A stretch of DNA of 64,000 nucleotides from Malacoraja senta (lineage: Eukaryota): assembly GCA_038087875.1 (NCBI GenBank), contig CM075987.1, positions 21,826,001-21,890,000 of the forward strand, in the 5' to 3' direction. Positions 1,155 through 64,000 of the stretch are shown here, piece by piece; positions within the stretch are counted from its first letter, which is position 1, and every line of letters begins with the position of its first letter. The notes below the pieces were generated by a model that saw nothing but the letters and a program-made list of their open reading frames with translations, was not told where the DNA came from and did no database searches. Position numbers and translations under genes: made by a program.

Positions 1155-1245
1155 CAAAACAAGTGCTGGAGGAACTCAGCAGGTCAGGCAGCATCTGTGG
1201 AGGGAATGGACAGGAGATGTTTCGGATCAGGATCCTTCTTCAGAA
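1155..1245 (-). mobile_element. Penelope-like element (PLE) terminal-repeat fragment with hammerhead-like core
   Basis: Minus strand 1216-1243 reads CTGAAGA-A-GGATC-CT-GATCC-GAAACATC. Confidence 0.7.
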
Positions 1246-1780
1246 CGATACCAGGTCATTGCCTCACTGAAGCCCTTGAGATAATGTATATTATTATTTT
1301 TTTAAATTACCCAGTGACCAATGACCAAAGACCAAAGAGTTGTTTTGGCCAAAGAACTTTGGTATTCTCCAAGACATCCAAGAGCAAAAAATACTTTTCA
1401 GGCAAGGGACAAAAACAAGTCACAGACTCATCTATATAAAATATCATTCAGAGACAATCCAGTCTGATTATTTGGAAGCGTCCAATTGGAAATCAAAAGG
1501 ATATGGGGGCTATGAGGATTGAGAGAGAAGGGGAGGAAAGGAGATCTGACTTTATATTCAGATTATTTCAAAATCTTCATGGACAAAATGACGAAGTAAG
1601 CCACTCAAGTCCACTAGTAACGCAATTATAATTTAAATCCATACTCTGCCATCGTTAAGCAGGTAAGTCATTGTGAAAGCACATCTTGTGTGGAAACATG
1701 AAATAAGATAGAAACACTGGGGGCATGAAGAGAAAAATAAAGTTCAGTTAAAGAAGATTTAAAAATTATGAATACTGAAC

Positions 1781-1933
1781 CTTCAGACACTTGAGCAGTG
1801 AAACCAGCACAGGTGCACGGCAGAGTTTATGAATCCAAGTTGGTTCGCGTCGGATAACGTGACCCAATAATGTTACGGCAGATAGTCGAGTGACTGCCTT
1901 CCCCATGCACTCGTTTAGTCGATCCAAAAGATG
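1781..1933 (-). CDS. TSC1: TSC1 coding exon 3 (equivalent to human exon 5)
   Basis: Pyrimidine-rich acceptor ending ttttcag| and donor AAG|gttcag; 153 nt; [51 protein letters not shown]. Confidence 0.96.
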
Positions 1934-5749: not shown

Positions 5750-5945
5750 CTTCATCCCCTTTGTCCTGTTTTCACCCCTTATTTTTCCTTTTCTATGTAT
5801 CTCCCTCTCCCCTGACATCAGTCTGAAGAAGGGTCTCGACCCGAAACGTCACCTATCTCCAGAGATGCTGCCTGTCCCGCTGAGTTACTCCAGCATTTTG
5901 TGTCTATCTTCGGTTTAACTAGCATCTGCAGTTCCTTCCTGCACA
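5750..5945 (+). mobile_element. PLE terminal repeat with intact minimal hammerhead core at 5823-5850
   Basis: CTGAAGA-A-GGGTC-TC-GACCC-GAAACGTC followed by the family tail ...agagatgctgcctgtcccgctgagttactccagc...gcagttccttcct. Confidence 0.85.
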
Positions 5946-6224
5946 GGAACATTAATCTGGAAATACTCTTGTGTCATTGAAGGCCAATTTAAGAGAGTTG
6001 TCCTCCAATTCTTTGTACTTCTGCCAAAGTTTAATGAAAATATAGGAAATTTAAGATTTTCCATTACCAGAGATGGAGTAAACCGAGATACCTAAACTGC
6101 AAGCCACACATTGTGGCTGAAAGGAAGATTTTCATTGTATCTATAACTTGCCATACTTGTGCATATAAACTTAATTCACCTCCATTTAATTTACTGGAAG
6201 GCTTTTTGGTTAGAGGGCAATAGC

Positions 6225-15492: not shown

Positions 15493-18400
15493 TAAACAAT
15501 TGATCTAAGCGTCCCCAGCTCTCTTTTCCAGCTTTCTTCCCCTTACCTCAATCAGTTTGAAGAAAGGCCCTGACATGAAATGTTTTTTGTCCATTCCCTC
15601 CATAGATGCTCCCCGACCCTCTGAGTTACCCCAGCACATTGTGTTTTGCTTGTGGTTGCAGCATCTACAGTTCCTTGTGTCTCCACTTATCACATTCCTT
15701 ACTTAACAGATTCCAGAATCGACTGCCATGTGTTGTCCCCACTTGTCACCTTCTGGCCTCTGTCTTTACTTCCTGATTGCCCACCATCCACCTGGCTCCA
15801 TCTGCCATTATCCCCCTCCTCACCTGTTCCACCAATCGCCTATCTGCTCCTGCCTCACCCATCCCCTCAATTCATACTGGATATCTCCCCTCTACATTCT
15901 CAGTCCTGATACAGACTCCTGACCCGAAATGTCAACTATCCCTCTCCCTCCACAGATATTCCCTGACCTGCTGCGTTTCTCCATCAGTTTGTTTATTGCT
16001 CCAGATTCCAACATCCGCAGTGTCTTGTGTCTTCAACCAAATCTGTTACTTTTGTTCATCACCAAACAGATGTGTGCTTGCTGGCTTCGATCCACTACCT
16101 TTCCCTAATGCTTTAAATTAAATTAAATGGTCCTCCCCTCCCCCATCTAGGCAACCTCCTCCAATCCTTCAACCAAATCCCAGAATCTAAATTATTCAGC
16201 CCAAAAGATTGATTGACTGAAAGATATGGCATGGAAACTGTCCCCTCGGCCCACCAAGTCCCCGCCGACCATTGATCACCCGTTCACACTAGCTATAGGT
16301 TATCTCACTTTCTCATCCACACCCTATGCATTAGTAGCGATTTACAGGGGCCAATTAACCAACAAACATGCACATTTTTGGTCTGTGAGAGGAAACCCAC
16401 ACAGTCATAGGGAGAACGTGCAAAACTCCACACAGACTACCAGCTGCACCACTGTGCCACCATGCTTGCATATTCTCCCCTATCTTTGCCAGAAGTGAAA
16501 TTAATCACTTTATTTGCAACCGATACAATAAAGTGCAGTAAAGGACTGTCAAGCCATTTTGAATTGCATCGTACTCCACGTGCTCCAAGTTTTTGGTCAT
16601 CCATCACAGAAGGGAAGGGGTCTATGGGAGAGTTTGCCCCTAGATCAGCAAACGCTAATGTTATTAGGATCATAAAGAGCACGGTTTACTGCCTGCTGCG
16701 ATAGCCTGCCTATATTTCCTGTTATGTTTCTATGCTGTTGTTTTTGTGGGAACAGCATGATATAAAATCACACATAAAATTCAATCTGAATGTTTAGTTT
16801 ATTTTATTTATTGCCACATGTACTGAGGTACAATGAAAAGCTTTTGTTGCATGCCATCCAGTCAGCAGAAAGACAATACATGATTACAATCGAGCCATTC
16901 ACAGTGGCTTGATAATGACCCTGCTAAATGATAATGCCATTGCAGGAAAACGTGAACATTTTATTCTGTATGAAGCAATGTTTTGTAAACAAAAGGTGGA
17001 GACACTGCCATCTGTTGAAAAACCGAAGGATTACAATATGGAGTCTCAAGGATTACAATATCTCTTGCAGAGCACAAAGTGTTGGAGTAACTCACCGGGC
17101 CAGGCAGCAGCTGTGGAGGGAATGGACAGAAGAGATTTTGGGCCAGGACCATTCTTTACAAGTAGAAACAAGAAACTACAGATGCTGGTTTACAAAAAAG
17201 ACACAAAGTGCTGGAGTCAGTGGGTCAGGCAGCATCTCTGGAGATCATGGATAGGCAATGTTTCAGTTCCCCACCTGAAACATTAGCTATCCATGTTCTC
17301 CGGAGATGCTGCCTGACCTGCTGAGATACTCCAGCACTTTGTGACCCTTCTTTACAATATTAACGCATCTTTCCATGTTCACATATTTACATAGTAATAT
17401 CACCCCAGACTTTTAAACATTTACAGTTTGTGTTTTGCAAGCACAAATGCTCTCCTCATATTTCCTCTTTGAGTTACATATCATTCTCTCTCTTCCCATT
17501 TTGATCTTATCCTTCAAAGTGCCCTTCAATTTTACACATTTTTGATAGAACGGTACATCAGAAGCTACAAATGCCTAATTCCCCTGCTGGCTGCTTATAG
17601 TGATTTCTGTTTAGCTTTCAGATCTTTAAGAATTCTACTATTTCTATTAGTAGCATATCCACCATTGCTCACCTTATAACATTGAGCCAATCTGTGCTCA
17701 ACCACTGACTGACCTATCAAATCTGTCTTTATTGATGAACATTGGTCCCAGCCTCGAGTAATTTTCTTTCCCCCATTTCTGTAAATTCATCCACTCACCA
17801 CCACCAACACTTCAAGTTCCTTCAACCCTGACATTGAACTTTCCTCCCTCTATCATTTAAGTGTTCAGTGGCTGAGTTTTCATACCACCAGACTGGCATT
17901 CTGGAATTCTGTCCTTAAATCTCCTTGGAACATTTTCCATGTTGAAGGTGTTGTGTAAATGAAATGTACTGTATATGTTCTTAAATTACACTGAACCACC
18001 TAATATATATTCAGATTCAGATTCAGATTCAGATTCAACATTATTGTCATTGTGCAGTGTACAGTACAGAGACAACGAAACGCAGAAATATATGTGTAGG
18101 AACGAACTGCAGATGCTGTTTTAAACTGAAGATAGACGCAAAAAGCTGGAGTAACTCAGCGGGACAAAATCATCTCTGGAGAGAAGGAATGGGTGACGTT
18201 TCGGGTCGAGATCCTTCTTCAGACACCTTATATATATATATGTATTGTTAATGGTACAACACCGCCACCTATTGATTGAAATCTGGGGATACATATTTAT
18301 TTTACATCATGAGCAATGCAATACTTGCACCTCTTTTCTTTCCTTCATCCAGGGACCAGGCTCCCTTTCCAGTAGGTACAACATTTTAGATATTCTTCGT

Positions 18401-19589
18401 TAACTTTAATATACTTTAGTTATTGTTTTACAAATCCTGATGCCATGACTTCGTTGATTGGGCAACCACTCTGTTGAAGCCACAAGCATGACTCCAAGCC
18501 ACCGAGTATGTTGATTTTCAGCAAAGTTATGGCACAGTAAGTGGCCATTTGGCCCATCCTTTATCGCTCGGTCAAGGATATAGATTTTAAGTTTAGAACC
18601 TACTTCCTATATCTTGGTCACAACCCTTCATGAGTTCATCCAGTTCTTTACACACATGGTGTTTGTTTCTCTCCACCATGATTTTATGTATGTCCACAGT
18701 ATGCCCTAAGCCACTACTACTCATTGATTTTCTTTTCTTAACTGCCCTCTAATCCTTCAACCAATTGACTTAAATCTACAGCAAAAAACAAACTGCTGGA
18801 GGAACTCAATGGGTCGAACAGCAGTTAAATTCCTTCAGCAGTTTGTTTTTCACATCAAATTCCAATTTCTGCCATCTCTTGTGTCTCCTTTCTAAGTCTC
18901 TCTCCCAAGGGAACTAGGTCATTTTAATTTCATCTTAATTATATCCCCTCCCAGTTTCAGAAATGTGCCCAGAGAATTTCCCTTTTCATTCTATATTCCT
19001 AACTCACGGTGTAAATGTGTATTCTTAGACCTGTGTCTGGAAATGTCCAATGCAATATGTCAAAGGATTGCAACATATGTATGAGTTACCCTGGACCAGT
19101 CCTAGTTCATGTTCGGGTCGTTAAAACCCTCAATTATCACTGCTTGTTATTTTTGCACTTCTTGAAAATTTGCCGAAGATAGACTCAAGGAGCTGGAGTA
19201 ACTCAGCAGGACAGGCAGCATCTCTGGAGAGGAGGAATGGGTGGCGTTTCAGGTTGAGAACCTTCTTCCCGAAATGTTACCCATTCCTGCTCTCCAGAGA
19301 TACTGCCTGTCCCGCTGAGTTACTCCAGCTTTTTGTGTCTATCCTATGTGTTATTGGTCACTCTGCACCTTGTGTAGAATTATGGGCAGCTGTGGGAAAG
19401 CTCTCATCTGGTGTGAGCACTAAGCTCGTGGAATCTTAAACATGTTTCCGGACCTGCATTGACATGATCATAATTGTTCTATGATTTCTTATAGACTAGC
19501 TAAGATTTCTCTGATTTTCTGGGATGTTATTGACAAATCATTGAACGGGAACAGCGCAACAGTGCCAACCAATGGTTGTTAGTGGTGTG

Positions 19590-19980
19590 GGTACACAAAA
19601 ATGCTGGAGAAACTCAGCGGGTGCAGCAGCATCTATGGAGCGAAGGAAATAGGCAACGTTTCGGGCTGAAACCCTTCTTCAGACTGATAAGGGGTGGGGA
19701 GAAGAAAGGAAAAAAGGAAAAAGGCGGAGGAGGAGCCTGAGGACTGGGGGAGGGGAGGAGACAACCAGAGGGCTGATGAAGGGGAGGGGACAGCAAGGGC
19801 TACCAGAATTGAGAGAATTCAATGTTCAAGCCCCCAGGATGTAGACTGCCCAAGCGGAATATGAGGTGCATTTCCTCCAATTTACGGTGTTGCTCGCTGT
19901 GGCCATGGAGGAGACCCAGGACAGAGAGGTCAGATACGGAATGGGACGGGGAGTTGAAGTGCTGAGCCACCGGGAGGCCA
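19590..19980 (-). mobile_element. PLE: GIY-YIG C-terminus plus terminal repeat with hammerhead core (19655-19682)
   Basis: ORF 19800-20063 contains LPVAQHFNSPSHSVSDLSVLGLLHGHSEQHRKLEEMHLIFRLGSLHPGGLNIEF; downstream on the same strand is CTGAAGA-AGGGTTTCAGCCC-GAAACGTT. Confidence 0.9.
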
Positions 19981-20689
19981 CCGGTTGTCAGTGGTGTTGC
20001 AGGTAGAGCAGGAGAGACAATTTCAAAAGGCATTAATGAAAGCAGAAAATGCTGGAAAAACAAGCAAACAGAGAAATCATCACCATTTTGGGTTCAAAAG
20101 CACTCTGAAATGAGAAAGAAAGACATCAAGAGTCAAGAGTATTTTCATGTGTACCAAAAACGAAACAATGAAATTCTTTATTTGCAGCAGCATAACAAGT
20201 CTGCAAACACAATATAACGCAATAAACAAATATATTCAATAAATTAAAAAAATCCCATTATTAGTGTAAAACAAAATCCTAAAGTCCCTAGTGCAACCAA
20301 GACAGTTCGTACTTTGTAGCTTAGTTGGTGTTGGTCGTGTTCAAGAGCCTGCTGGTTGTTGGGAAGAACATGGAGGTCACAGGTTCCTGTACCTTCTTCT
20401 CAATGGCAGAAGTGAATCATGTGTCCTCACTCTTCTTGGGCAATCATAGAAACATAGAAACATAGAGACCATTTGGCCATTCGAGCCTGCAACCGCCATT
20501 CATTGTGATCATGGCTGATCATCCACAATCAGTAACCCGTGCCTGCCTTCTCCCCATATCCCGTGATTCCGCTGGCCCCTAGAGCTCTATCTAACTCTCT
20601 TTTAAATTCATCCAGTGAATTGGCCTCTACTGCCTTCTGTGGCAGAGAATTATTGATCCCCTTTTAAAGCAGGTTGGAAACTCAGATAT

Positions 20690-25860: not shown

Positions 25861-27743
25861 TTTTATTTTTCAGAATCCATTTCTCTAATTGAAGAGCATC
25901 TCACCTGCTCATTCATGGTCTAAAATCAACGAACCCTTGCAATCTCTCACCCATAATTTTGGGCTCTGTGTATATCCCCACATACACATCCCTGTTTGCT
26001 TAACTAACACAATCTATGTTCATTCCTGAATGTATAAATCTGTTTGTTTATTTGCCTTTATTTGCCCTCTTTGTACATCATTCACATTCACATCCATATT
26101 CTCTTTCACTCCATGTGAACATATAATACATTTTTCATATTTCAGATATTTTAGTACACAACAGTTAGTATACATCTGAGTGGACTGTACTGGATCTGTC
26201 AATATTGAGCATAGGTTAATATGGGATTGCAAAATTATATCTATGCAGCTGTTTATGTTAAATGCCTTTTACTTTCAATCATAATCTTCCCCCTTCTGGT
26301 TCTCGTTATTTTTCTCCCTTCATTTTCTCCTTTCTTCTTCCTGCTCTATCTCGCTACATCACTTGGTTTATTTTTCTGTTTTCTCCGTATCTTGAACAGG
26401 GCGGTTTTCTGTCCTACCAACCCCAAAGCTTTTTCTGCACAGTCGAGATAAGAATTCCGTTATCTGGGAGATGCAAGTGTGGTATTTAAAAAGAAGACAT
26501 GCAGAAAATTACATTGTGCGTTGATATTGTGCATTACAGTTATTTTCAGGCTCGAGGGATATGTTTAGTAGTGTACCCCGACCACCAAGGTCCTTAATAT
26601 ATAATAATCACTTGGTTTTTGGGCTTGGTCTTGTAATTTCCAAAATCACACAGACCTTAGAATCATGGTAAACTCTAAATGGGACAGTTGTAGGTTACAG
26701 ACAGAAGCAACTGCAGATGCAGAACCTGCAGTACCCTTCTTCAGAGTGCTTGCAGTAAGCCCTCAACTATAATCAGTCTGAAGAAGGGTCTCGACCTGAA
26801 ACGTCACCTATCCATGACCTCCACAGATGCTGCCTGACCTGCTGAGTTACTCCGGCATTTTGTGTTTGTTATTAGTTGTAGGATAGAGACAGGCTGGTGG
26901 TTTGGGCAGTTGCAGCCAGGGAGGTCAAAATCTAATGCAGTGTTACATTTACATGGGGAGAACAAGGAGTGACAATGTAAACTAGGGGGCATAATTCTAT
27001 AAGGAGTATTGGAAAGGAGAGATACTGGGTGTATATGTGTAAATAATTAAAAGGGGTTGAGCAGATTAAGAAAGAGGCTTTAAAAAGCATTCTGAGCATC
27101 AAAAATAGAAATATAGAGAGCGTTGAGATATATGGAGAAAGACAGAGGGTGTTGAGTGCCTGGAACACACTGCCAGGGGTGGTGGTGGAGGAGGCAGGTA
27201 CAGTAGTGGCATTTAAGAGCCTACTGGATAGGCACATGGATCGAACGTGGAATGGAGGGGTACGGATCACGTGCAGGCAGAGGAGATCAGTTTGACCTGA
27301 CATCATGTTTAACAAGGACACTGTGGGCCAAGCGGGTTGTCCCCCTGTGCTGTACTGTTCTATGTTCCTGGTTCTAATCCTTACAAAAACATTGGTTCAG
27401 TAAAATATCAATTTCTGGGCAGGAAAGACGTGAAGATCTTTTAGTGAAATGTATGTGAATGACTCTAGGCTACGTCTGGTTGAGAAACTTTAATTACATC
27501 AATAGACCAGAGAAACTGGGGTTTGTTTTCCTTGGAGCAAAGAAGGTTATGGGAGGGTGGGGAGGGAGGCATTTAAGACTATGAAAGGTCTATACAGAGT
27601 ATACTGAGACATTGATGTAAGGACAAAGAGCCAAGGGACATAAGATGAGCATGTTTGGCCATCCCTAATTGCCCTTGAGAACATGGTGGTGAGCCACTTC
27701 TTTGAACCATGGCAGTCTTGGGTAAGACATACCTATAGTATGC

Positions 27744-37888: not shown

Positions 37889-38000
37889 ATGCCGAAATCA
37901 TTCCTGGTGAAAAGCAGAAAAACTGGCTCTTTTAACCAGCCTCGATACAACGATGATAAAGTATCAAGCAAACTGGAGCCGGTGTTGACACCTCCTGTTG
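37889..38000 (+). CDS. GFI1B: GFI1B coding exon 1 (gene exon 2; SNAG domain)
   Basis: Acceptor cccctccccag| at 37872, ATG at 37889, MPKSFLVKSRKTGSFNQPRYNDDKVSSKLEPVLTPPV, donor TTG|gtgagt; phase 1. Confidence 0.95.
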
Positions 38001-38627
38001 GTGAGTTTCAAAAGTCAAGAGCTTTACAGCCCAATTAAAGCAATAGCTCAACAAATAAAAATACAATCAACAATAAATCAATAAATTAATAATCAGTATA
38101 ATACTCGGTGACTAGACCGTTTCCTGTAGGCCATGGGGAATACGAGGTGTTATCCCGTGTTTCTTGTCATGATGGGAGATGGAGTTCACGAACTGATTAT
38201 GACATCATTTTAATCTCAGTACTTTTCCTCCTATCTTCCAATTTCTCTTCTTCATCATCATGATTTTTTTTTGTCTCACCACACTCCTTTTCTGGTCTCT
38301 CTGAAAGCCCCTTGTTTCACCTTAGTTGAACTGCTCCATTACTCAGAAATGCTTCTGGAACAAATCTTAGTTATTATAAAAAAGGAAAACTTAATATAAA
38401 GCGGAATAAATGTTATTAGAATTTTATAAAATTAGATCGGAAGGACTTTATAAATTGTGAGTACTGAACCTGGAAAGGAAATGGTGATCTTACACAGGTG
38501 TGGTTGATTGGACTAATGTTACCAGAGTTAACATAAATAAACACAGTTAGTGTTTACTGGAATATGGAAGATTAAAGAATGATTTGATTGAGAATTTTCT
38601 GATTTTTAAATGGACACAAGAGTAAAC

Positions 38628-38972
38628 CGCGAGCAGCACCGGATATTGGAGGAAATGCACCTCATATTCCACTTGGGCAGTCTACATCCTGGGGGCATGA
38701 ACATTGAGTTCTCCCAACTCTGCTAGCCCTTGCTGTCCCCTCCCCTTCATCAGCCCTCTGGTTGTCTCCTCCCATCCCCCAGCCCTCGGGCTCCTCCTCC
38801 GCCTTTTTTCCTTTTTTCCTTTCTTCTCCCCACCCCCTATCAGTCTGAAGAAGGGTTTCGGCCCGAAACGTTGCCTATTTCCTTCGCTCCATAGATGCTG
38901 CTGCACCCACTGAGTTTCTCCAGCATTTTTGTGTACCTTCGATTTTCCAGCATCTGCAGTTCCTTCTTTAAC
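38628..38972 (+). mobile_element. PLE: GIY-YIG C-terminus plus terminal repeat with hammerhead core at 38845-38872 (sense to GFI1B intron 2)
   Basis: EQHRILEEMHLIFHLGSLHPGGMNIEFSQLC* then CTGAAGA-A-GGGT-TTCG-GCCC-GAAACGTT; closely similar to the 19590-19980 copy. Confidence 0.9.
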
Positions 38973-39197
38973 ACAAGAGTAAACCTTTTTCCTTGTGGGC
39001 AACAAAGGACATAACCTTAACATCTGAGCCATACTCTGGTTTAAATGCTCGGGAACATGCAAAGGGTGACAGCAATATGAAATACTCTTCCACAAATACA
39101 GATTTTAAGATTATGTCCCTTTTATTCTTGTGCCATTGCTAGCAGAATTGTGAAATTGGACAAATCTGGTCATTTCTGTATAAGTAACAGTATTCTG

Positions 39198-45238: not shown

Positions 45239-47727
45239 GTACCGAGATCTTATGCATAGAACCGGCACATCAGCTCACCCTAAAAAGGCTTGGTAGGGTA
45301 TAGAAATGTTCATTTGCATACTTGATTGTCACAAGACCCACTTTACAAACAAATCTTATGAGCAAGGAAAGGCTTGCATGTTATGGTGCCTTTCATTATC
45401 TAAGAATGCCCCAGGAATTTTTTTAAAATCAAGTATTTTTAAAGCAGAAAATATAACAGTGATTTGTACACAGCAATTCCCATGGAGCCTGATATTTGAC
45501 CAAATCACTGATATTGGTAGCCACAGCACGGTAGTTGACTGGCCCCATTTCTTTTCAATTTAGTGCATGGGGTTCTTTAGAATCCGCCAGAGAGGACAGA
45601 AGTCACACCTGAAAGAAAGAATCTCCAACTGTGGGGCACGTCCACCGTGGAGAGTTGCCAATTGCAGTTAGATGTAGATCTGATAGATTGGATGACTGCC
45701 ATAGACCGTCATGTGACAGTCAGTCAGCACTGGGTGGGTCCTCCTGCAGTTGTATATCTTTCTACCCAGTAACTGCCAGTATCTTAATGAGTTGAAATAG
45801 AGAAAATGGGACAATATTGCAAATTTGTCCCCTTAAGTCATGAACGGACGTGCATATTCATGGTAAGTTCAGACTGAGTTATTGAACTACCCAGCGTTTG
45901 TTTCTAATCATAAATGCAGTAAAACAATAACCTGCTATCCCATTGATCGTGGCATTTGGCATATTGGGTGATGTTTCCCACACTCCCTTTAACTCATTTG
46001 TGTCCCGTATCCTGCACTCCCATTAAATACACTGGGGCCTGTTTCCCGTGCTCTCTTTAAACTCTCTTGGTTCTGTGGAAACGTTATTAGACTGCCATGT
46101 AACATCTAACAAAAATGAATTAGAAGTTGGGAATTAACAGGAATAGCATCCATAGGGCCGGACAATCTGTCAGGCAGGCATCATCTAAGCATAGAGCATG
46201 ATGGATTAATTGAAATTTCACTGTATGTTGAATTTATAGACTTACCGTTGATTATTTTGATTGAACAAACAACCATTATTTTATAAGTTATAGGAGCAGA
46301 ATTAGGCCATTCGGCCCATTAAGATGACTCCACCATTCAATCATGGCAGATCTATCTTTCCCTCTCAACCCCATACTCCTGTCTTCTCCCCATAACTTCT
46401 GACACCTGTATATAGAATAGGTTTGAATGACATACACTTTAGTTTATTGTCACTTGTATCGAGGTACAGTGAAAAGCTTTTGTTGCGGGCTATCCTGTCA
46501 GCAGAAAGACGATACATGATTACAATCGAGCCATTTACAGAATGTGAGTTTGAATTAATACTGAACAGCGGTTTTAACATTATGAAAATATCTCACTGGA
46601 GTTTTATCAAGCAACGTTGAACAACAAGGCGTGCAAGGACACATATTAAGGATTGCTGAAGTGTATCTTTTAAAGGACATAAATAAGGAAAGAGGTGGAG
46701 AGGGAGTTTAGTTGGGGTAGGGGAAAGGCATGAAGTGAAATTCCGACGTATGTGGTTTAGCAGCTGAAGGTTGGCCTGCAAATAGTACAGTGATTGAAGT
46801 CAAGGGTAAGTGAGAGGACATCCTGATGTTTTGGAGCTTAGTGGAAGCAGCGACCAAAGGGGTGAATGGTATGTGAGTCTTGGTGCGAGTGAAGGTAAAA
46901 CCAGCAGAGTTTTAGATTTAAGATATATACAAAAAGCTGGAGCAACTCAGCGGGACAGGCAGCATCTCTGGAGAGACCCTTCTTCTCGACCCGAAACATC
47001 ACCCATTCCTTCTCTCCAGAGATGCCGCCTGTCCCGCTGAGTTACTCCAGTTTTTTGTGTCTTTCTTCTGTTTAAACCAGCATCTGCACTTCCTTCCTAC
47101 ACATTGAGTTGTAGATGTCGTGGAAGGAATGTGGAAGCTGTGAGATCACCCAGCTTTGAGCTGGGAAAGATGCATCAAGATTCATAAATTAGCTGAGATT
47201 TGAGGGAGAGAGTCTGAAATTTGTTGTGGTAGAAAGAAAAATGAATTTCGCTGCACCGAGGCACATGTGACAATAAAGTACAGTACCGCTAACCCATGAT
47301 CACTGTTCAGTGGATCTCATTTCAAGGATCTTCAACTGGATACATTCCTGGATATTTCATCGTATCAGTTTGAAGGGGAACAGAGTTATAGCTTCAGTAG
47401 CAGGTAGTTAGAATATAGAACATAGAACAGTAGAGCTCAGGAACAGGCCCTGCACATGATCTACGCCCTGCATATCATGTGCCTATCTAAAAATCTTTAA
47501 AACACCACTATCATATCTACTTCCACCAATACCTCTGGCAGCGCATTCCAGGCACCTGCCATCGTCTGTGTTAAAAGTCATGCCCCACACACTCCTTTTA
47601 GACTTTGCCCCTCTCATCTTAAAGCTCTGCTCTCTTAACTTTGAGTTTGGAGGGTACAGAGGGTCAGGTAGCATCTCTGGAGGAAAAGAATAGGTGACGT
47701 TTCGGGTCGAGGCCCTTCTTCAGTCAG

Positions 47728-48938: not shown

Positions 48939-49528
48939 CCTGTGTTAATAGAGAGATGCCATTTTGTTGCCAAAACTCTCTCCCTCTTACTTTAAAGTAA
49001 GTTTAAAAGCTTCACTTGGGACTCATTCCAGAACATGTATGACTTCTGTCATCCTGACCCTCTTAGTCATTATCATGATGCTATTTGTAGTATCTTATTG
49101 TGTGCAAATTAGCTTTCTTATTTATTTTATAACAACAGTTAATGCATTCTGGGAAAGAACATTTTTTAACTGTAAATCACTTGAGATAGTGAAAGGTTCT
49201 ATATCGAACTCATCTTTTTTCAGAGAGGATTGAGATTTTAAGAAAATATTATGTCATTGTTATATGTGTGGGAGCTAGACACAAAAAGCTGGAGTAACTC
49301 AGCGGGTCAGGCAGCATCTCTGGAGAAAACGAATAGGTGATGTTTCGGAACGAGACCCTTAACGTCACCTATTCCTTTTCTCCAGAGATGCTGCCTGACC
49401 CGCTGAGTTACTCCAGCTTTTTGTGTCTATCCTCAGTGTAAACCAGCATCTACAATTCCTTCCTACACATCTGTGGGAGAGCAGTTGAAGCCCCCTTTGG
49501 GAGCCATGACCTGTAGAATGTGGGGACA

Positions 49529-52370: not shown

Positions 52371-52508
52371 GTCTTCTCCACGCCTCACGGCCTGGAGGTC
52401 CACGTCAGGAGGTCTCACAGTGGCATACGACCCTACGCCTGTGACCTGTGTGGGAAAACATTTGGCCATGCCGTCAGCCTGGAGCAACACCTGAACATCC
52501 ACTCACAG
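52371..52508 (+). CDS. GFI1B: GFI1B gene exon 5 (rest of ZF1 and ZF2)
   Basis: 138 nt, phase 0-0; [46 protein letters not shown]; donor CAG|gtattc. Confidence 0.97.
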
Positions 52509-54196: not shown

Positions 54197-55740
<1,544 letters not shown>

Positions 55741-57826
55741 AGGACATAACAAAATATAAAATGACATCAGTTGGCTTAAAGTGGGATTTGGGCAGAAACA
55801 GCTGTCCCACCGAATAATAACAAGGGTAAATTTAATAGAACCAAATGTTGGAACCAATGTAGGACACAATGTGCTGGAGTAACTCAGCAGGTCAGACACT
55901 ATCTCTGGATAGTGTGGATAGGTGACGATTCAGGTCAGGGCCCTTCTTCAGAATGCATATCTGTAGTTTTTTTGCATGCTCTCCAGAGATGCTGCCTGAC
56001 CTGCTGAGTTTCTCCTTAACTTTGTGTCATTTTGTGTATTAACCATCATCTGCAGTTCTTTGTTTCTACCTTTGAAACCACTGTTGAGTTTTATATTCAA
56101 CACAAGGAACTGAGGGAGAATTTCTGCAACTCAGTGACAGAAGGAGGAAGGTAGATTGTAAACAGTCTTCTTTTAAGGTTCAGGCAGAGTGTTTGTTTCA
56201 TTTAGCAAGCCTATTCCACTATTTAATGAGATCACGGTTGATCTGACTGCAGCCTCAACTGTGCTTGTGGCAATCATTCACCCCTCACATATCAAACAGC
56301 TATCGACCTCTACCTTCAAACCATTCAAAGACCCTGCCTCCACCACCCTTTGAGGAAGAGCATTTAAACACTCATGACCATCTGAGAGAGAAAATAATAA
56401 TTTGAAACCACCACCTTTGTATCAAAGTGTGAGTAGATTCTATTTTTGAGCTGCAGCTGAGAATCTGACTTTGGATACTGTCCGTGTGGACTTTGCAGGT
56501 TGCTCCAGTTTCCTCCCACATCACAAAAATGTGTGGGTTTGTAGGTTAATTGGCCTCTGTTAATTGCCCCTAGCATGTTGGGAGTGGATGAGAAAGTGAG
56601 ATGAAATAGAACTAGTGCGAATGGGTGATGAATGGTCGGCATGGACTCGGTGGGCCGAAGGGCCTGTTTCCCTGTTGCAACTTAAACTAAACTAAATGTG
56701 GTGTTATGAAATTTATGGACAATATTACTTACTCATGACATTCAATAGAAGTCCTTCAGAAAGGCTTCCTTCCTGCGGCTGTAACAGTACTCCCGCTTAC
56801 TCCCCATCCTAATGTTACTACCCATGGCGGTTCTTATAACTCTAAAGCAGAGATTGCAGGTTCAATTCCTCTACTAGAGATTTAAATTCTAAGCTGATAT
56901 TTCCTTGTAATACTGATGGGATGTTGACTGACTAGCTTCAAAACGCACTTTGTTGGATGTAAAGTACTTTGGATGTTATTGAAAATTGCTATATAAAATG
57001 CAGGCCTTACTTTCCATGCTACCTTTTAGGAAGACATTAACTTACTCCCTGTTTGGCTTGCCTAGGGTAGATTAAAAACGATTCTGTGATGTTATTTCAA
57101 AGATAAAGGGAAGCGTTCTCTCTGTAGCATCAGCTAACGTCTTATTCCTTAAACCAACATAATAAAACGATTGGAGATACCAAGAACTGCAGACGCTGGA
57201 ATGATGAACAAGATATCAATTGGTGAACAAACTCATCGGGTTAGGCAACATTGGTAGAGGGAATGGACAGGCAACGTTTCAGGTAGGGACATGATCTGTC
57301 CATTCCCTCCATAAATGCTGCCAGACCTGGTGAGTTACTCCAACACTTTGAGTTTTGCTTAATAAAACAACTCATCCAGTCATTATCACATTGCAAAGAC
57401 CTTTGATTAGTACGGCTGTCAGAGGTTTCAGGGAGAAGGCAGAAGAATGGCGTTAGGAGGGAGAGATAGACCAGCCATGATTGAATGGCGGAGTAGACTT
57501 GATGGGCCGAATGGTCTAATTCTGCTCCTATCACCTGTGATCTTATGACCATTTACCCGAAATGTTAATTTGCTTTCCATCCCCATTGATGCTGCCAGAT
57601 TCACTGAGTAATTTCAGCATTCTCTTTTTTTAAAAATCATATTGGTAGTGGTGGAAGATTGCTGTGAGCAAAAATAATAGCACATTTTTGAAAATGACCA
57701 CTGCATTTTTGATACTAACGCCAAGAACAAGTCCGTTCACTAATGTCCTGAAGTGCTAGCGGACATTTTGAAGTGCAAGTTTGTTCTCCTATTAACTTCT
57801 GCCTTTTGCTCTGCTTTGTGTCTCAG

Positions 57827-58008
57827 GTGAGAAGCCTCACAAGTGTCAGGTGTGTGGGAAATCGTTCAGCCAGAGCTCCAACCTCATCACCCACAGCCGC
57901 AAACACAGTGGCTTCAAACCCTTTGGTTGCGAGCAGTGTGCCAAGGGCTTCCAACGCAAAGTGGATCTCCGCCGTCACTGCGAGACTCAACACGGCTTGA
58001 AGTGTTAG
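57827..58008 (+). CDS. GFI1B: GFI1B last coding exon (ZF5-ZF6, stop TAG 58006-58008); total CDS 1026 nt, 341 aa
   Basis: Acceptor tttgtgtctcag|; (G)[59 protein letters not shown]. Paralogue assignment is supported by adjacency to TSC1. Confidence 0.97.
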
Positions 58009-58017
58009 GACTCAGGC

Positions 58018-58180
58018 GCAAGGAACTGCAGATGCTGGAATCTTGAGTAAAAGCACAATGTGCTGGAGGTACTCAGTGGATTAGGCAGCATCCATGGAGG
58101 AAATGGACGCGTGATAACACCCGTCTATTCCCTCCACAGATGCTGGCTGATCCGCTGAGTTACTCCAGCACTTTGTATTT
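58018..58180. mobile_element. Degenerate inverted PLE repeat starting about 10 nt after the GFI1B stop codon
   Basis: aggaactgcagatgctgg...tgctggaggtactcag...ctgagttactccagcactttg. Confidence 0.75.
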
Positions 58181-59264
58181 CGTTGAAGTGTTGGAAGCCT
58201 CTCTTGGAAGTGCAGGGTGAGGGGTGGGAGGCTGGGAGTGCAGAGGGGGAATATGAAAACAAATGACCATCATCAGCCAGAATGAACGAGCCCCTGCCCA
58301 CCCCCTCCACCCTCTCCCATTGACTTGCTGTGCACTGAAGTGAAACACTGGCTGGAAGCTGGGGAGATTCAAGTGGCTCCATGCACCCAAGGAAAGCCCA
58401 ATCCCTATCGGTTTGGTTTTTCCTCAGTTGTCCTCTCAGCTGTTTTCCAGATACTTTGAAATAATTTTGCTGTAATGTCTTTTATTCTGTTCCCTCATTG
58501 ACCCACACAGATTGTCCATTGCTTCAAAACTCTCCAACCCTTTCTCATTCCTCCTCCCTATCTGTAACTTCTTTCATCCTTGGAAATATTGGAAATCGTT
58601 ACTTATTTCCGATTCGAGCTACTTGCCCTTGGTTCTACCATTGGTTTAAGCTGCCCAAGCTTCAAATCCCAGAATCTCCTACCTATACTGCCACCTCTCC
58701 CAATCTTCCCCTTTTTAAGAACTTTTCATAGCCTATCTCTCTGACCATGCTTTTGATAAACAGTCCTATTGAGTGACATTGAGCGCCTGAATGTCATTTG
58801 TCTGAAGCAATGTCTGAATGAGTGGCGCAGCTGGTAGAGCTGCTGCCTCACAGCTTCAGAGACCTCAGTTGAATCCGGACCTCTGTGTGGAGTTTGCATG
58901 TTCTCCCTGAGACCGAGTGGGATTTTCCTGGGTGCTCCAGTTTCCTCCTACATCTTAAAGGTTTGTAGGTCAATTGGCCTCTGTAAATTGCCCCAAGTGT
59001 GTCGCGAGTGGATGCGAAAGTGGGATAACAAGGACGAGTGTGAATGGGTGATCAATGTTGACGTGGACTTGGTGGGCCGAAGGGCCTTTCTCGATGTTGT
59101 ATCTTTCAATCAATTCAATGAATCAATTCCACTCTGATAATATCCCCATGAAGTTTCTGCAGGTGATTTACAGTGATAAAGGCACAGTTTAAATGCACTT
59201 TGTTGCTGGTGTATTAAAACTAGAAAATGTTGAGGATACCCAGTAGAGTGACAGTCAGAGCTGC

Positions 59265-60720: not shown

Positions 60721-62325
60721 TCGTAGTTTATTCCCCAATTTGTGTTCAACTGGTTGATCTCAGCTAAAGAGCGAAGTTTACGACTGACTTTGTGCTGTTG
60801 GATGTTGTTGGAGAGAGGCGGGTATTTGACAGAACATCCATCCTCTTCATCAAATGTAATTTGGCCATCAGCATCGCCACTGGGACAGGGAAGTGGTGAG
60901 GGTGAGGCGTTGGGGTTGGGGAGTGGGTGGAGAAGAAATAAGTGGCTCAGTACATGCTGTGATTTGAAATCCTTCTTTAGTTTCATGGATACAGAATTGG
61001 ACAGAAAATGCTGCAAAGAAAAGGTCATTGACTTAACAAGTCCTTGTCAATATTTGTGCTCCACTCAAACATCATCTTGGCACCTCTTTACCTTCCTTAT
61101 TTGCAAATCTAATTTCCTATTGATTGCATCTGTGCTTCATATACTTCAAATGTTTTTATAGTTGCATGTTCCCATATTCTTAAAACCTTCTGGTTTAAAA
61201 AAAAGTATCTCCTGGATTTGCTAGTGCTTCTTTCATTCACACGGGTTCCAGTTTTATTCTTCCTGAGAAAGTGGGTTAACAATTCACGCGCGTTCACATC
61301 TGCTAAACACGCGGTATTGTTGTGGCTGCACAATGTGCTCTGTCTCTGAAATTTGTTTCCATTGAATGGAATCAATGGATTCATTATCCTGCAAGCAAAC
61401 TGCATCCATCCCACAAGCCGTGTTGTGCAGGTACCAGCAATAATACAATACAAAGGCCTCGCCAAATGATATTTTAAGGCAGAGATAGATAGATTCTTGA
61501 TTAGTACGGGTGTCAGGGGTTATGGGGAGGAGGCAGCAGAATGGGGCTGGAAGGGGGAGAAGGCAGGCACGGGTTATTGATTGGGGACGATCAGCCATGA
61601 TCACAATGAATGGCGGTGCTAGCTCGAAGGGCTGAATGGCCTCCTCCTGCACCTATTTTCTATGAAGAGATAGATCAGCCATGATTGAATGGCATAGACT
61701 TGATGGGCAGAATGGCCTCATTCTGCTCTGATCACTTGTGAACATGTTGGCCCAAATGTTCATGTTCATGTTCACATGTTCTGGGAGCAGAATAAGGCCA
61801 TTTGGCTCATCAAGTCTACTCCGCCATTCAATCATGGCTGATCTATCTTTCCCTCTCAACCCCATTCTCCTGCCTTCGCCCCATAACCCCTGGCACCCTT
61901 ACTAATCAAAAATGTGTCAATCTCCGATTTAAAAATATCCATTGACTTGGCCTCCACAGCCATCTGCGGCAATGAATTCCACAGAGTCTGTGTGACATAA
62001 ATATTATCTCCAGGACCCTGCTGAAAGAAGTCCCAGAAGGAATATAATGGAGTGCATTATCACTTTTGGTTTGTTTGAGTGATCCAGTTCATTTATGGAA
62101 AAGCTTTCTCTTCATTAAAAGATAAGAATCATCCAATATTATAATAGAGTTATTTCCTTTCCAATTTACTGCAAGGCCCGATGTGGGCATTTGTATTTAT
62201 GTGTAAAGAAGGAACGGTGGGTTTGCATTAAACACAGTAAGGACAAGTGCATACGTGTGCGTAATATGAGTCTTTTCAAATGCGTCATTTTCTGTGGTTA
62301 CATTATGGTCACATCTTGGTCTAAT

Positions 62326-62396
62326 GTGGGGATTAGACCAAATTATGGTCTAATCCCCACGTAAAACCAATTAGACCAAATTATGGTCTAATTGGT
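62326..62396. repeat. Two adjacent perfect hairpins sharing a 23-nt core
   Basis: GTGGGGATTAGACCA-aatta-TGGTCTAATCCCCAC (62326-62360) and ACCAATTAGACCA-aatta-TGGTCTAATTGGT (62366-62396). Confidence 0.9.
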
Positions 62397-64000
62397 CTAA
62401 TTCTGTGGGGAGCCACAGAAGGTATTGGTCACAAAAGTCTGGAGTAACTCAGCGGGACAGGCAGCATCTCTGGAGAGAAGGAATGGGCGACGTTTCGGGT
62501 CGAGACCCTGCTCCATATGGGTGACCAGAATGTATTAGTCACAGCCACAGAATATTTGTCGCGTTCTGTGGGTGAGCCAATGATAGTGTAGGGAAAGGAT
62601 AACTGAAAGTCCAGCAATATGTTCAAACAAGTTGGAATGTCAGCATGTGTGATGGAGAATTTTTATCACAGTTTTTGTTTCTTTCTTATAAATACCAGTT
62701 AAGCTTATTCAGAATAAAATCAGTGAAAATTTGCCTGTTTTGTGTTGTTTGATTTTTTTCATTCCCTTAGCTTTATTGTGGAGAAGGGTCCCGACCCGAA
62801 GCATCACCTAACCTTGTTCTCCAGAGATCCTGCCTGACCCACTGAATGACTCCCATGCTTTATATCCTTTTATCTCTAGTTAATGTTGATTCTCGGAGCC
62901 AACCTTGATGATACGAAACTGTAACTCATGACGATGATACTTGGGGTACATCTCCCTTGCGGGAGATGGAATCTTACGCCACACATTGTCACAAGAGGTT
63001 CCCATCCCGTGACTGAAATGGGTATGTTCACTGTTTGGATGAAGGAAAGGCTAAAGATATGCAGGGCGTAACTGAAGAGTTCATGCCTAGGTATGGGGTT
63101 GCGATGATGAACTCAGTGCCTGGTGCTTGGGGGGAGGAAAAATAAATGAGGTTCCCATTCCTGATCCGTGCGGAAGTGCACATCAGAGCAGGACTATGTA
63201 GTCTTGTAGTGATACTAAAATGGAGACATAAAGAACTGATTTATAAAAAATACAAACTGCTAGAGTAACTCAGTAGGTCAGGCAGCATCGCTAGAGGATG
63301 TGGATAGTTGACACTTTGGGTCATTGCCCTTCTTCGGATTGTAATGGGGGGGGGGGTAAAGTTGGAAAAGAGGTGGGATAAGGTCTTGACCTGAAACATC
63401 ACCTGTTCCTTTTTCCAGAGATGCTGCCTGACCCGCTGAGTTACTACAGCACTTTGTGTCTAAAGCTTGGCAAGTGATAGGTGGATACAGATGAGGGGCA
63501 TTTGATTGGCAGGTGGGTGGACAAAGGCCACAGATGAAAGGGAGCCAAACGGCTGTGAGATAAAGAGAGAAGAGGAGCGGTGTGAAGCCAGAGGAAGGGG
63601 GAGAGGTGGGAGGGGACAGGGGAGATGGGGTGGGGGGGGGGGGGAGGTGTAGGGGAAAGATAGTGGGGCAGGATAGTGGAAGACATTGGTGCACACCAGG
63701 GTAGGTACAGGGAAGGGTGGGGGGGAGGGGGAATAGGGAGGGGTACCGTTGTGCAAGAACGTGTGTGGTACAACATTACGGGGTCATTGGACGTGTTGTG
63801 GGCAGCTACAGGTATTTACGGATACTGCTATGTGAAGAACATGCCAATACTGATGTGGGTTGGTACAAATATGCACAAGTGGAATTGTTCTCTCCCTGGA
63901 CAGACTCAGCTCAAAATAACGTAGCTAGTGTTGAAGGAGTTAACAGATTTACCGCCTTGTCTCTAATCCATCTGGAGAGCGCCATGTGATAGGATGTTGC

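What the first reader, a model, noticed from the sequence alone, without database searches (positions are those of the whole stretch)
1216..63460. Window is seeded with Penelope-derived minimal hammerhead-ribozyme cores, including sense copies in introns
Seen: the most abundant repeat (roughly 30 fragments by eye) carries CTGAAGA-[hairpin]-GAAAC-GTY. Near-intact cores are at 5823-5850(+), 19655-19682(-), 26778-26805(+), 31947-31974(+), 34390-34417(-), 34430-34457(+) and 38845-38872(+). Helix II varies while staying paired (GGGTC/GACCC; GGATC/GATCC at 1216-1243; GGGT-TTCG-GCCC). In two copies the core follows a GIY-YIG C-terminus on the same strand. Established: Penelope-like elements encode minimal type I hammerheads (CUGANGA...GAAA, NUH site) whose loopless palindromic helix III (ACGU) needs dimerisation. 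Inference: this is a large non-autonomous, retrozyme-like family, and three intact cores (31947, 34430, 38845) lie in the sense strand of GFI1B pre-mRNA, where they could pair and cleave it. Caveats: helix I is only about 2 bp (GU/AC) in most copies and there is an extra A before helix II.
Basis: partly seen in the sequence, partly recalled or inferred. Interest (0 to 1): 0.7.

Follow-up and report, generated by a model that had tools for sequence, protein, structure and literature searches.

The report
Penelope retroelement tails with hammerhead motif
The window is littered with short, dead end-pieces of a Penelope-like jumping gene that carry that element's known minimal hammerhead-ribozyme motif; they behave like ordinary decaying repeats, not like a device that cuts the host gene's RNA.

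Summary
CTGANGA-hairpin-GAAAC occurs 12 times against 1.2 expected, inside a 95/131-nt repeat with 56 fragments in the window.

The repeat is the 3'-terminal module of a Penelope-like element (PLE). Two window copies run on into a GIY-YIG C-terminus. The same genome holds a 1092-aa RT-endonuclease frame followed about 114 nt later by the same module.

PLE hallmarks are present:
- An optional 36-nt tail.
- Head-to-head inverted pairs: 29 of 35 adjacent pairs.
- A tail on one arm only: 19 of 24 classifiable pairs.
- Partial tandems.

The motif matches the published PLE minimal hammerhead, with a 2-bp helix I.

The GGAT/ATCC double change occurs at the neutral expectation (124 observed, 117.5 expected). 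There are no retrozyme-like tandems. The GFI1B cleavage idea fails: only the 38845 core is surely intronic, 34430 sits in a -184 kcal/mol hairpin, and strands are balanced (9+/11-).

This is a new member of a known kind, of low interest.

The parts
5789..5949 (+). PLE 3'-terminal unit (older CUCG-loop family) with 36-nt tail. Intact hammerhead-type core at 5823-5850.
19590..19985 (-). 5'-truncated copy of the younger UUCG-loop PLE family. It holds the GIY-YIG C-terminal coding part (19803-19985), a 3' UTR, an intact core at 19655-19682 and a short 3' end without tail.
26763..26879 (+). Unit with core 26778-26805. G.U at 10.1-11.1. No tail.
31911..32050 (+). Unit with intact core 31947-31974. 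The predicted site GUC|A lies at 31974/31975. It is 5.9 kb upstream of the GFI1B ATG exon.
34297..34524 (.). Head-to-head inverted pair: minus arm 34297-34431 with part of the tail, plus arm 34419-34524 without it. Both cores are intact (34390-34417 minus, 34430-34457 plus). As RNA it folds into a hairpin of about 95 bp.
38610..38973 (+). 5'-truncated copy of the younger family. It holds the GIY-YIG C-terminus (38610-38723), a pyrimidine-rich 3' UTR, an intact core at 38845-38872 and a tail to 38973. It lies in sense orientation in the GFI1B intron after the ATG exon.
1161..1254 (-). Decayed unit with GGAUC/GAUCC helix II. The ACGU palindrome is lost.
18093..18224 (-). Unit with tail that starts within 2 nt of CUGAAGA. 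Helix II has an A.C mismatch.
17168..17345 (.). Head-to-head inverted pair of 5'-truncated units.
19172..19355 (.). Head-to-head inverted pair.
46888..47104 (.). Head-to-head inverted pair, both arms with tail. It also gives the sub-threshold Rfam miRNA-like hairpin hit.
49271..49469 (.). Head-to-head inverted pair, tail on the plus arm only.
54781..55001 (.). Head-to-head inverted pair, tail on the minus arm only.
57182..57361 (.). Head-to-head inverted pair, tail on the minus arm only.
58019..58189 (.). Head-to-head inverted pair, tail on the minus arm only. It begins just after the GFI1B stop codon.
37889..38002 (+). GFI1B first coding exon (SNAG domain, MPKSFLVKSRK...). The donor GTGAGT follows 38002.
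52371..52508 (+). GFI1B zinc-finger exon.
54296..54463 (+). GFI1B zinc-finger exon.
57829..58005 (+). GFI1B last coding exon, up to the stop codon.

Best explanation
The repeats are dead insertion products of endonuclease-bearing Penelope-like retroelements (PLEs) of a cartilaginous fish. The linker motif suggests the Neptune type.

Each unit is the element's 3'-terminal module. It holds the PLE minimal type I hammerhead motif (CUGAAGA, a bulged A, a 4-bp helix II with a tetraloop, GAAA, the palindromic CG and UH). About 67 nt follow, ending at one of two alternative 3' ends 36 nt apart; the difference is the PLE 'tail'.

Shown here: the module, its autonomous parent, the two 3' ends, the head-to-head pairs and the neutral decay.

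Inferred from published PLE biochemistry (Frangieh et al. 2024): the PLE protein cuts both target strands and primes reverse transcription at two internal sites of the RNA. That would give short inverted pairs with a tail on one arm only.

My inference: the hammerhead motif is carried along because it lies about 95-131 nt from the reverse-transcription start sites. It serves, if anything, the element's own RNA. After insertion it decays neutrally, fastest at its three CpGs. It has no role in GFI1B expression.

The sharp 5' boundary of many units lies 0-3 nt upstream of CUGAAGA and is preceded by a conserved TCAGT. [quoted passage not shown]
For: Repeat and motif:
- The motif is enriched 10-fold over shuffles.
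- The unit has 56 fragments in 64 kb of window and 84 in 200 kb of random genome.
- 44,987 + 25,034 exact cores of the two main helix II types occur genome-wide.

PLE parentage:
- Two window copies continue upstream into ...PVAQHFNSPSHS...LGSLHPGGLNIEF*.
- That 61-aa piece matched at all 150 scored places in the genome, each at E<=2.1e-30, inside open frames of up to 1092 aa.
- In locus L013 the 1092-aa frame matches RVT_1 (E 1.3e-5). Its C-terminus matches GIY-YIG (E 0.0011). It carries a C-x4-C-x2-C linker.
- 518 relatives were found. Nearly all of the 120 listed carry PF00078, and some also PF01541.
- The unit lies about 114 nt after the stop. A truncated upstream copy, tail included, abuts the element's 5' end, which is a partial tandem.
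- Same-strand arrays with about 2.45-kb spacing exist on contig C1.

Insertion hallmarks:
- 3' ends are bimodal: 61 of 140 at model positions 121-144, 56 at 157-174 and only 5 between.
- 29 of 35 adjacent pairs are head-to-head.
- 19 of 24 classifiable pairs have exactly one tail, binomial p=0.003.
- These match passages in Craig et al. 2021 and Frangieh et al. 2024.

Decay and 5' ends:
- Neutral decay: 124 double variants against 117.5 expected.
- Non-CpG core columns are no better kept than the downstream columns 80-117.
- 5' ends: 50 of 140 start at model positions 31-42. Only 8 start at 61-72, around the ribozyme site.
- 29 of 37 copies with unrelated flanks end within 3 nt of CUGAAGA.
Against: - Pfam scores for RVT_1 (25.5 bits, cut-off 29.6) and GIY-YIG (19.6 bits, cut-off 22.6) fall below the curated cut-offs. 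The domain calls lean on the precomputed families of relatives and on motifs read by eye.
- No RNA data could be obtained, so the transcription start, cleavage and expression are all untested.
- The 200-kb genome sample is small.
- The sharp 5' boundary could also come from reverse transcriptase falling off at the motif, or from an independent short element.
- Column conservation across copies mixes subfamily differences with decay.
Confidence: 0.85

Rival explanations
1. The units form a retrozyme-like non-autonomous family, and the sense copies at 31947, 34430 and 38845 pair through the ACGU palindrome and cleave GFI1B pre-mRNA.
For: - The cores are intact by motif.
- 38845 is sense and intronic.
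- PLE minimal hammerheads showed some activity as dimers or trimers in vitro (Cervera & de la Pena 2014).
- An anole PLE hammerhead cleaved in vitro with C3/G8 rescue (Frangieh 2024).
Against: - Cores at 31947 and 34430 lie upstream of the ATG exon.
- 34430 is locked in a -183.7 kcal/mol hairpin with its inverted partner.
- The sense cores are 2.5 and 4.4 kb apart, joined only by a 4-bp palindrome. Helix I is 2 bp.
- The predicted monomer prefers a fold that sequesters the core, by 5.1-5.6 kcal/mol. The predicted dimer does not use ACGU.
- There are no tandem arrays in the window.
- Strands are balanced in the gene, 9+/11-.
- Helix II double changes occur at the neutral rate.
- In vitro activity of metazoan minimal hammerheads is described as low.
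Confidence: 0.03
2. The 95/131-nt unit is an independent short non-autonomous element (a 'mini-PLE'). It would be transcribed from its own start at the conserved TCAGT and copied in trans by the PLE protein, rather than being a by-product of full-length element RNA.
For: - The 5' boundary is discrete: 50 of 140 fragments start at model positions 31-42. 29 of 37 copies with unrelated flanks end within 3 nt of CUGAAGA.
- TCAGT is kept at 0.84-0.89 while the three columns before it drop to 0.43-0.47.
- In contigs of four runs of four coded organisms the cover is 100-1000 times deeper over 38842-38973 than over the coding part. Loose ends with no consensus lie at 38839-38844.
- In the anole PLE a short RNA around this region suffices as template.
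Against: - The unit holds nothing that the autonomous element's 3' end lacks.
- Copies that extend upstream by varied lengths exist: 22 of 71 anchored copies have a pyrimidine-rich PLE 3' UTR upstream.
- A solo unit lacks upstream promoter sequence of its own.
- No RNA evidence could be obtained.
- Contig depth is not copy number.
Confidence: 0.12
3. The CUGANGA...GAAA resemblance is not a working ribozyme in this family. On this view the conserved module is mainly a protein-binding and priming structure for the PLE reverse transcriptase, and the hammerhead-like boxes are retained for that reason or as a relic.
For: - No Rfam hammerhead family matches even at E<=10.
- Helix I is 2 bp.
- The hammerhead-compatible fold is 5.1-5.6 kcal/mol above the minimum-energy fold. 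A conserved alternative stem, GAAGAAGGGU/ACCYAUUCCUUC, appears in the consensus fold of 14 intact copies.
- The downstream columns are as conserved as the core.
- Unit 5' ends are not at the cleavage site.
- In the anole PLE, ribozyme mutants did not affect insertion, and no RNA-seq ends were seen at the cut site.
Against: - Every diagnostic detail of the published PLE minimal hammerhead is present: the bulged nucleotide, G10.1-C11.1, palindromic 15.2-16.2 and H at 17.
- The two main subfamilies differ only in ways that keep the rules: U-A to U.G in helix II, C17 to U17, and 2.1-1.1 U-A to U.G.
- The anole motif does cleave in vitro.
Confidence: 0.12

Closest known systems
Minimal hammerhead motifs (min-HHR) of metazoan Penelope-like elements (Cervera & de la Pena 2014, PMC4209133)
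   Same: [quoted passage not shown]
   Different: Helix I is 2 bp here, against 4-5 bp in the main consensus. Helix II is 4 bp plus a tetraloop, against 7-8 bp in Schistosoma. Cartilaginous fishes are not named in the main text I read, and the supplements were not seen.
Drosophila virilis Penelope hammerhead variant (same paper)
   Same: A 2-bp helix I. An intron 3' end maps to the 5' edge of helix I there. Here a pyrimidine tract plus CAG stands at the same spot.
   Different: The D. virilis motif has a bulge in helix II and a 2-nt insertion in helix III. No intron is shown here.
Poseidon_Ac (PAc) of Anolis carolinensis (Frangieh et al. 2024, PMC11167929)
   Same: Tandem locus structure, two adjacent internal reverse-transcription start sites that define a 30-40-nt tail, cutting and extension of both target strands, and a hammerhead about 100-150 nt upstream of the start sites.
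   Different: In PAc the motif overlaps the ORF start. Here it lies about 114 nt after the stop codon, in the 3' UTR. The biochemistry was not tested here.
Non-LTR retrozymes of animals (Cervera & de la Pena 2020, PMC7229834, listing only; Li, Clavereau & Pollet 2026 bioRxiv, abstract and Results read)
   Same: Non-coding hammerhead-bearing repeats related to PLE pseudo-LTRs. One chondrichthyan was reported to hold them.
   Different: Retrozymes are head-to-tail tandem repeats with canonical type I hammerheads that give circular RNAs. These units are solo or head-to-head and carry the minimal motif.
Conserved intronic hammerheads of amniotes (RECK, CTCL; reviewed in PMC6155905, passages read)
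   Same: Type I hammerhead motifs in sense orientation in introns, thought to derive from retroelements.
   Different: Those are single-copy, canonical motifs with tertiary contacts, conserved across orthologues. These are multicopy, minimal and decaying.

Membership tests
Penelope-like elements, endonuclease-bearing | A single protein with a reverse transcriptase followed by a C-terminal GIY-YIG endonuclease. | tested here: met
   The 1092-aa frame in L013 matches RVT_1 at E 1.3e-5 (25.5 bits, below the 29.6 cut-off). Its C-terminal 166 aa match GIY-YIG at E 0.0011 (19.6 bits, below 22.6). Relatives carry PF00078, and some carry PF01541. The evidence is weak by Pfam cut-offs but consistent.
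Penelope-like elements, endonuclease-bearing | Pseudo-LTRs formed by partial tandem insertion. | tested here: met
   In L013 a truncated upstream copy ending in the tail abuts the 5' end of the full-length copy. Same-strand arrays with about 2.45-kb spacing lie on C1.
Penelope-like elements, endonuclease-bearing | An inverted 5'-truncated copy adjacent, giving inverted-repeat structures. | tested here: met
   29 of 35 adjacent fragment pairs are head-to-head. There are 1,818 tight head-to-head core pairs genome-wide.
Penelope-like elements, endonuclease-bearing | [quoted passage not shown] | tested here: met
   Two 3' end classes lie 36 nt apart: 61 and 56 of 140 fragments, with 5 between. 19 of 24 classifiable pairs have one tail.
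Penelope-like elements, Neptune/Nematis type | A CX2-5CxxC zinc-finger-like linker between RT and EN. | tested here: inconclusive
   C-NRKR-C-NT-C precedes the GIY-YIG part in P0001. No phylogeny was made.
PLE minimal hammerhead (min-HHR) | Conserved boxes CUGANGA and GAAA, with H at position 17. | tested here: met
   Of 73 core-covering copies, 52 keep CUGANGA, 46 keep GAAA and 71 keep H17. 15 keep everything.
PLE minimal hammerhead (min-HHR) | [quoted passage not shown] | tested here: met
   A46 is kept at 0.95, G47 at 0.88, and C58 at 0.70 (a CpG site).
PLE minimal hammerhead (min-HHR) | Palindromic 15.2-16.2 in place of helix III. | tested here: met
   GAAA-CG-UC gives ACGU. It is intact in 34 of 73 copies and is a CpG site.
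PLE minimal hammerhead (min-HHR) | A helix I of 4-5 bp. | tested here: not met
   Only U-A and G-C (or U.G and G-C) can form, which is 2 bp, as in the D. virilis variant.
PLE minimal hammerhead (min-HHR) | Compensatory changes in the helices within a genome's families. | tested here: not met
   For pair 10.3-11.3 the double change was seen 124 times against 117.5 expected from the singles. Between the two main subfamilies only wobble-compatible changes are seen.
PLE minimal hammerhead (min-HHR) | Self-cleavage. | not testable with these tools
   This needs in vitro transcription or end-specific RNA libraries. No raw RNA reads were on offer.
Rfam hammerhead families | A match to a curated covariance model. 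| tested here: not met
   No hammerhead hit appeared at the gathering score or at E<=10. This is expected for a motif without helix III.
Non-LTR retrozymes | Head-to-tail tandem repeats with one hammerhead per unit. | tested here: not met
   TRF finds no array of period 100-500 in the window. Only 4 of 35 adjacent pairs lie on the same strand. The apparent 348-nt repeat at 15545/15893 is two unrelated copies.
Non-LTR retrozymes | Circular RNA products. | not testable with these tools
   No RNA reads were available.

The most novel reading that the evidence does not exclude
The genomic 'fossil record' of about 10^5-10^6 units reports on PLE RNA biology.

Template RNAs would start at the A of a conserved initiator-like TCAGT, 3 nt before the hammerhead's C3. 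The motif would then sit at the extreme 5' end of the element's RNA, which would also explain why helix I can only be 2-3 bp.

Solo units would be complete run-off cDNAs primed at the upstream pseudo-LTR's start sites.

Hammerhead-cleaved RNA would almost never be the template: 8 of 140 5' ends lie near the cut site against 50 of 140 at the motif's 5' edge. If the ribozyme acts at all, it would sever a capped leader of about 31 nt rather than resolve tandem transcripts.
Probability: 0.3. Interest if true: 0.45.

Novelty: new member of a known kind. Interest (0 to 1): 0.2.

Why it matters
The result mainly shows that a striking-looking 'ribozyme-seeded' gene region is ordinary retroelement debris. 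Minimal hammerheads in PLE terminal repeats, inverted pairs and tails are all in print.

The value is modest and has three parts:
- It documents a very abundant PLE 3'-module family in a cartilaginous fish genome, with at least 74,852 exact-flank cores.
- It gives a clean genome-scale negative test for post-insertion helix II covariation.
- It offers genomic counts that agree with the two-start-site, both-strand priming model and argue against ribozyme-cleaved RNA as the usual template. These are the one-tail asymmetry of inverted pairs and the 5' ends that lie at the motif's edge rather than at the cut site.

The inverted pairs are also a large source of perfect hairpins inside introns, which could matter for small-RNA annotation.

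Tried and rejected
- Rfam. At the gathering score and at E<=10 there was no hammerhead hit. The sub-threshold miRNA-like and Plastid-psbJ-4 hits are the inverted pairs.
- Pfam on fragments. The two short window GIY-YIG fragments alone gave no family.
- RNA evidence. No RNA holder was listed. All 24 runs are kept as contigs, so read starts and ends, strand and level cannot be told. Laying four runs showed no begin/end places. Cleavage at 31974/31975 is therefore untested.
- Retrozyme-like tandem. The same-strand copies 348 nt apart (15545 and 15893) are only about 60% alike outside the unit, so they are not a tandem.
- tRNA-derived SINE head. ARAGORN finds nothing in the window.
- Second covariation test on pair 10.4-11.4. 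GGGC..GCCC occurs 108 times and GGGU..GCCC 25,034 times. I left it unfinished because the two backgrounds differ in age, so rates are not comparable.
- Larger genome sample.
- Pattern for inverted pairs with full cores.
- Earlier findings of this scan. A look-up by sequence returned nothing.
- Literature. Three searches were made: 'Penelope-like'+'hammerhead', 'Penelope'+'hammerhead'+'shark', and 'Penelope'+'elasmobranch'+'transposable elements'. None found a paper on this unit in cartilaginous fishes. The supplements of Cervera 2014 and of the 2026 preprint were not seen and may name such families.
- Pfam on other window frames. Four other open frames in the window (five queries) and the second frame of L013 gave no family.


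Full report
**Observation**

The pattern CTGANGA-N8-30-GAAAC occurs 12 times in the window. The 100 dinucleotide-preserving shuffles gave a mean of 1.20 and a maximum of 6, and none reached 12. All 12 matches share flanks. The core is followed by GTC/GTT and about 70 more conserved bases ending in ...CTCCAGCATTTTGTGTCTATCTT.

Self-comparison and a profile of the unit find 56 fragments at E<=0.01, about 9% of the window. A strict check asks for five things: CUGANGA, GAAA, four standard pairs in helix II, the ACGU palindrome and H at position 17. It passes 15 of the 73 copies that cover the core, out of 140 fragments in 264 kb (the window plus twenty random 10-kb stretches of the same genome).

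The copy at 1216-1243 is on the minus strand and has lost the palindrome.

**What the repeat is**

Two window copies, 38610-38973(+) and 19590-19985(-), are 94.6% alike over 312 nt. Upstream of the core they read a protein C-terminus...PVAQHFNSPSHSVSDLSVLGLLHGHSEQHRKLEEMHLIFRLGSLHPGGLNIEF, then a stop and a pyrimidine-rich spacer of about 110 nt.

That 61-residue piece matched at all 150 scored places in the window's own 1.94-Gb genome, each at E<=2.1e-30, inside open frames of up to 1092 residues. I fetched the longest, locus L013. Its features are:
- The frame matches RVT_1 (E 1.3e-5, below the curated cut-off).
- Its last 166 residues match the GIY-YIG catalytic domain (E 0.0011, below the cut-off).
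- It carries a C-x4-C-x2-C linker before LIYCIRC...LIYIGET.
- 518 relatives were found. Nearly all of the 120 listed carry PF00078, and some carry PF01541.
- The best named relative is an uncharacterised shark protein at 68% identity.

The same repeat unit lies about 114 nt after the stop. Upstream, a truncated earlier copy ends with the unit's longer 3' end and abuts the element's 5' end. This is the partial tandem that defines a pseudo-LTR. Same-strand cores spaced about 2.45 kb apart on contig C1 show longer arrays.

**Insertion hallmarks**

3' ends of the 140 fragments fall into two classes: model positions 121-144 (61 fragments) and 157-174 (56 fragments). Only 5 lie between, and 18 end earlier. 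The difference is a 36-nt extension, CGGTTTAAACCAGCATCTGCAGTTCCTTCCTGCACA.

Of 35 pairs of fragments lying within 60 nt of each other, 29 are head-to-head with 3' ends outward, 2 are tail-to-tail and 4 are on one strand. Of the 29 head-to-head pairs, 19 have the extension on exactly one arm, 3 on neither and 2 on both. In 5 pairs an arm ends elsewhere. Against the solo-unit frequencies (37 short, 31 long) this gives p=0.003. Genome-wide, 1,818 places hold two cores head-to-head within 30 nt. 16 of the 50 places listed have a single base between the arms.

These features are the ones described for PLEs:
- A high degree of 5' truncation.
- Partial tandems.
- An adjacent inverted 5'-truncated copy.
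- A 30-40-bp tail, often at one end only.

They are described in passages of Craig et al. 2021. Frangieh et al. 2024 (passages) give a biochemical basis in the anole element: both target strands are cut and extended, and reverse transcription starts at two adjacent internal sites whose distance is the tail. That this mechanism made the copies here is an inference.

**The hammerhead motif**

The main text of Cervera & de la Pena 2014 lists traits of PLE minimal hammerheads that emerged beyond their search descriptor:
- A conserved G10.1-C11.1 pair.
- Palindromic 15.2-16.2.
- Families with compensatory changes.

The first three are met here: A46 is kept at 0.95, GGG.../...CCC flanks the loop, and GAAA-CG-UC gives ACGU. 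Helix I is only 2 bp, as in their D. virilis variant. No Rfam hammerhead model matches even at E<=10. That is expected for a motif without helix III.

**Covariation**

I counted exact cores in the whole genome:

| Helix II form | Count |
|---|---|
| GGGU-N4-ACCC | 44,987 |
| GGAU-N4-ACCC | 2,255 |
| GGGU-N4-AUCC | 2,344 |

Independence predicts 117.5 for the double change, so it is what neutral decay gives.

Non-CpG core columns (0.88-0.98) are no better kept than downstream columns 80-117 (0.83-0.98, with one column at 0.65). The three CpGs are the worst kept (0.68-0.79).

Between the two main subfamilies the differences keep the rules, but only through wobble-compatible transitions. The subfamilies are CUCG loop with GUC|A, and UUCG loop with GUU|G (25,034 cores). 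The differences are U-A to U.G in helix II, C17 to U17, and 2.1-1.1 U-A to U.G. This is weak evidence of constraint in the active lineages.

**Folding**

- A 99-nt unit folds no better than shuffles (z=0.18).
- In both subfamilies the hammerhead-compatible fold lies 5.1-5.6 kcal/mol above the minimum-energy fold.
- The minimum-energy fold pairs GAAGAAGGGU of the core with ACCYAUUCCUUC downstream. This stem also appears in the consensus fold of 14 intact copies.
- Predicted dimers do not use the ACGU palindrome.

This agrees with the low in vitro activity reported for metazoan minimal motifs. It is only a thermodynamic prediction.

**The 5' boundary**

50 of 140 fragments start at model positions 31-42, and CUGAAGA begins at 39. 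Only 8 start at 61-72, around the predicted cut at 66/67.

Of 71 copies anchored on the core, 22 continue into a pyrimidine-rich PLE 3' UTR and 12 into the inverted partner. The other 37 have unrelated flanks, and 29 of those end within 3 nt of CUGAAGA.

The five bases TCAGT before the core are kept at 0.84-0.89, while the three columns before them drop to 0.43-0.47. In contigs of four runs from four coded organisms, loose ends without consensus lie at the same spot (38839-38844) and at the two 3' ends.

[quoted passage not shown] TCAGTC fits the initiator consensus as I recall it, not from any call here. It does not look like a ribozyme product. A pyrimidine tract plus CAG at this spot also recalls the intron end at helix I in D. 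virilis Penelope. None of this could be tested without RNA reads.

**Host gene**

Zinc-finger exons lie at 52371-52508, 54296-54463 and 57829-58005 (stop), and a SNAG exon starts at 37889, all on the plus strand. The last exon is 93-98% identical to proteins named Gfi-1b in rays and sharks. The gene call is therefore right.

- The cores at 31947 and 34430 lie upstream of the ATG exon, and no 5' exon was identified.
- Only 38845 is surely in an intron, in sense orientation.
- The 34430 core is one arm of an inverted pair that folds at -183.7 kcal/mol, z=-23.
- Within the ATG-to-stop span there are 9 plus and 11 minus fragments.

The 2026 preprint of Li et al. (abstract and Results read) reports retrozymes depleted from introns in Xenopus.

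**Scale**

The random 200-kb sample holds 84 fragments (0.42 per kb), against 0.875 per kb in the window. Extrapolated, this is of the order of 8x10^5 fragments. That is a rough figure from a small sample.

**Verdict**

The covariation, retrozyme and GFI1B-cleavage parts are not supported. This is a new member of a known kind.

Noticed in passing
window 30622-30692, 46941-47047, 49295-49412, 54854-54957: Sub-threshold Rfam hits (Plastid-psbJ-4, mir-9186, mir-1270) are simply the long hairpins formed by head-to-head PLE unit pairs. Such pairs could be mis-annotated as miRNA precursors, or could yield small RNAs.
   Followed up: partly
model positions 41-50 with 67-78 of the unit, e.g. window 31949-31958 with 31975-31986: A conserved alternative stem, GAAGAAGGGU/ACCYAUUCCUUC, would sequester the hammerhead core. 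It is the predicted minimum-energy and consensus fold. It could be an off-switch or part of a protein-binding structure.
   Followed up: partly
window 38790-38844 and 19683-19740; L013 2550-2610: A long pyrimidine tract followed by CAG stands directly 5' of the motif. It looks like a 3' splice site and recalls the intron end at helix I of D. virilis Penelope. The same bases (TCAGTC) also fit an initiator.
   Followed up: no
G000:C1:3997402-3997470; joints 38882-38885 back to 38849-38853: A variant of the unit has a tandem duplication of about 33-38 nt in the core segment. It shows as two cores 38 nt apart on one strand in this genome, and as 'goes back 33-35' joints in contigs of other coded organisms.
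   Followed up: no
G000:C1:3870305-3892415 and 4002237-4035111: Same-strand arrays of young-family cores spaced about 1.9-3.2 kb and about 2.45 kb apart. These are probably tandem arrays of internally deleted PLE copies.
   Followed up: no
L013 5217-6344(-) and 2663-5938(-): In the longest copy a 376-aa open frame overlaps the 1092-aa RT-EN frame in another reading frame. Either this copy carries a frameshift or the N-terminal part is read separately. The 376-aa frame has no Pfam match.
   Followed up: partly
window 4468-4836(-), 27726-28094(+), 39225-39557(+), 49740-51098(+): Open frames that by recall resemble LINE (CR1/L2-like and L1-like) reverse-transcriptase or C-terminal parts. Pfam gave no family at E<=0.01, so these names are unverified.
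   Followed up: partly
window 18225-18245; L023 about 9050-9090: Some units abut short (TA)n-like stretches. This may reflect the microsatellite or AT-rich target preference described for PLEs. It was not counted.
   Followed up: no
window 38003-52370: The middle coding exons of GFI1B (the region between the SNAG exon and the zinc-finger exon at 52371) were not located.
   Followed up: no
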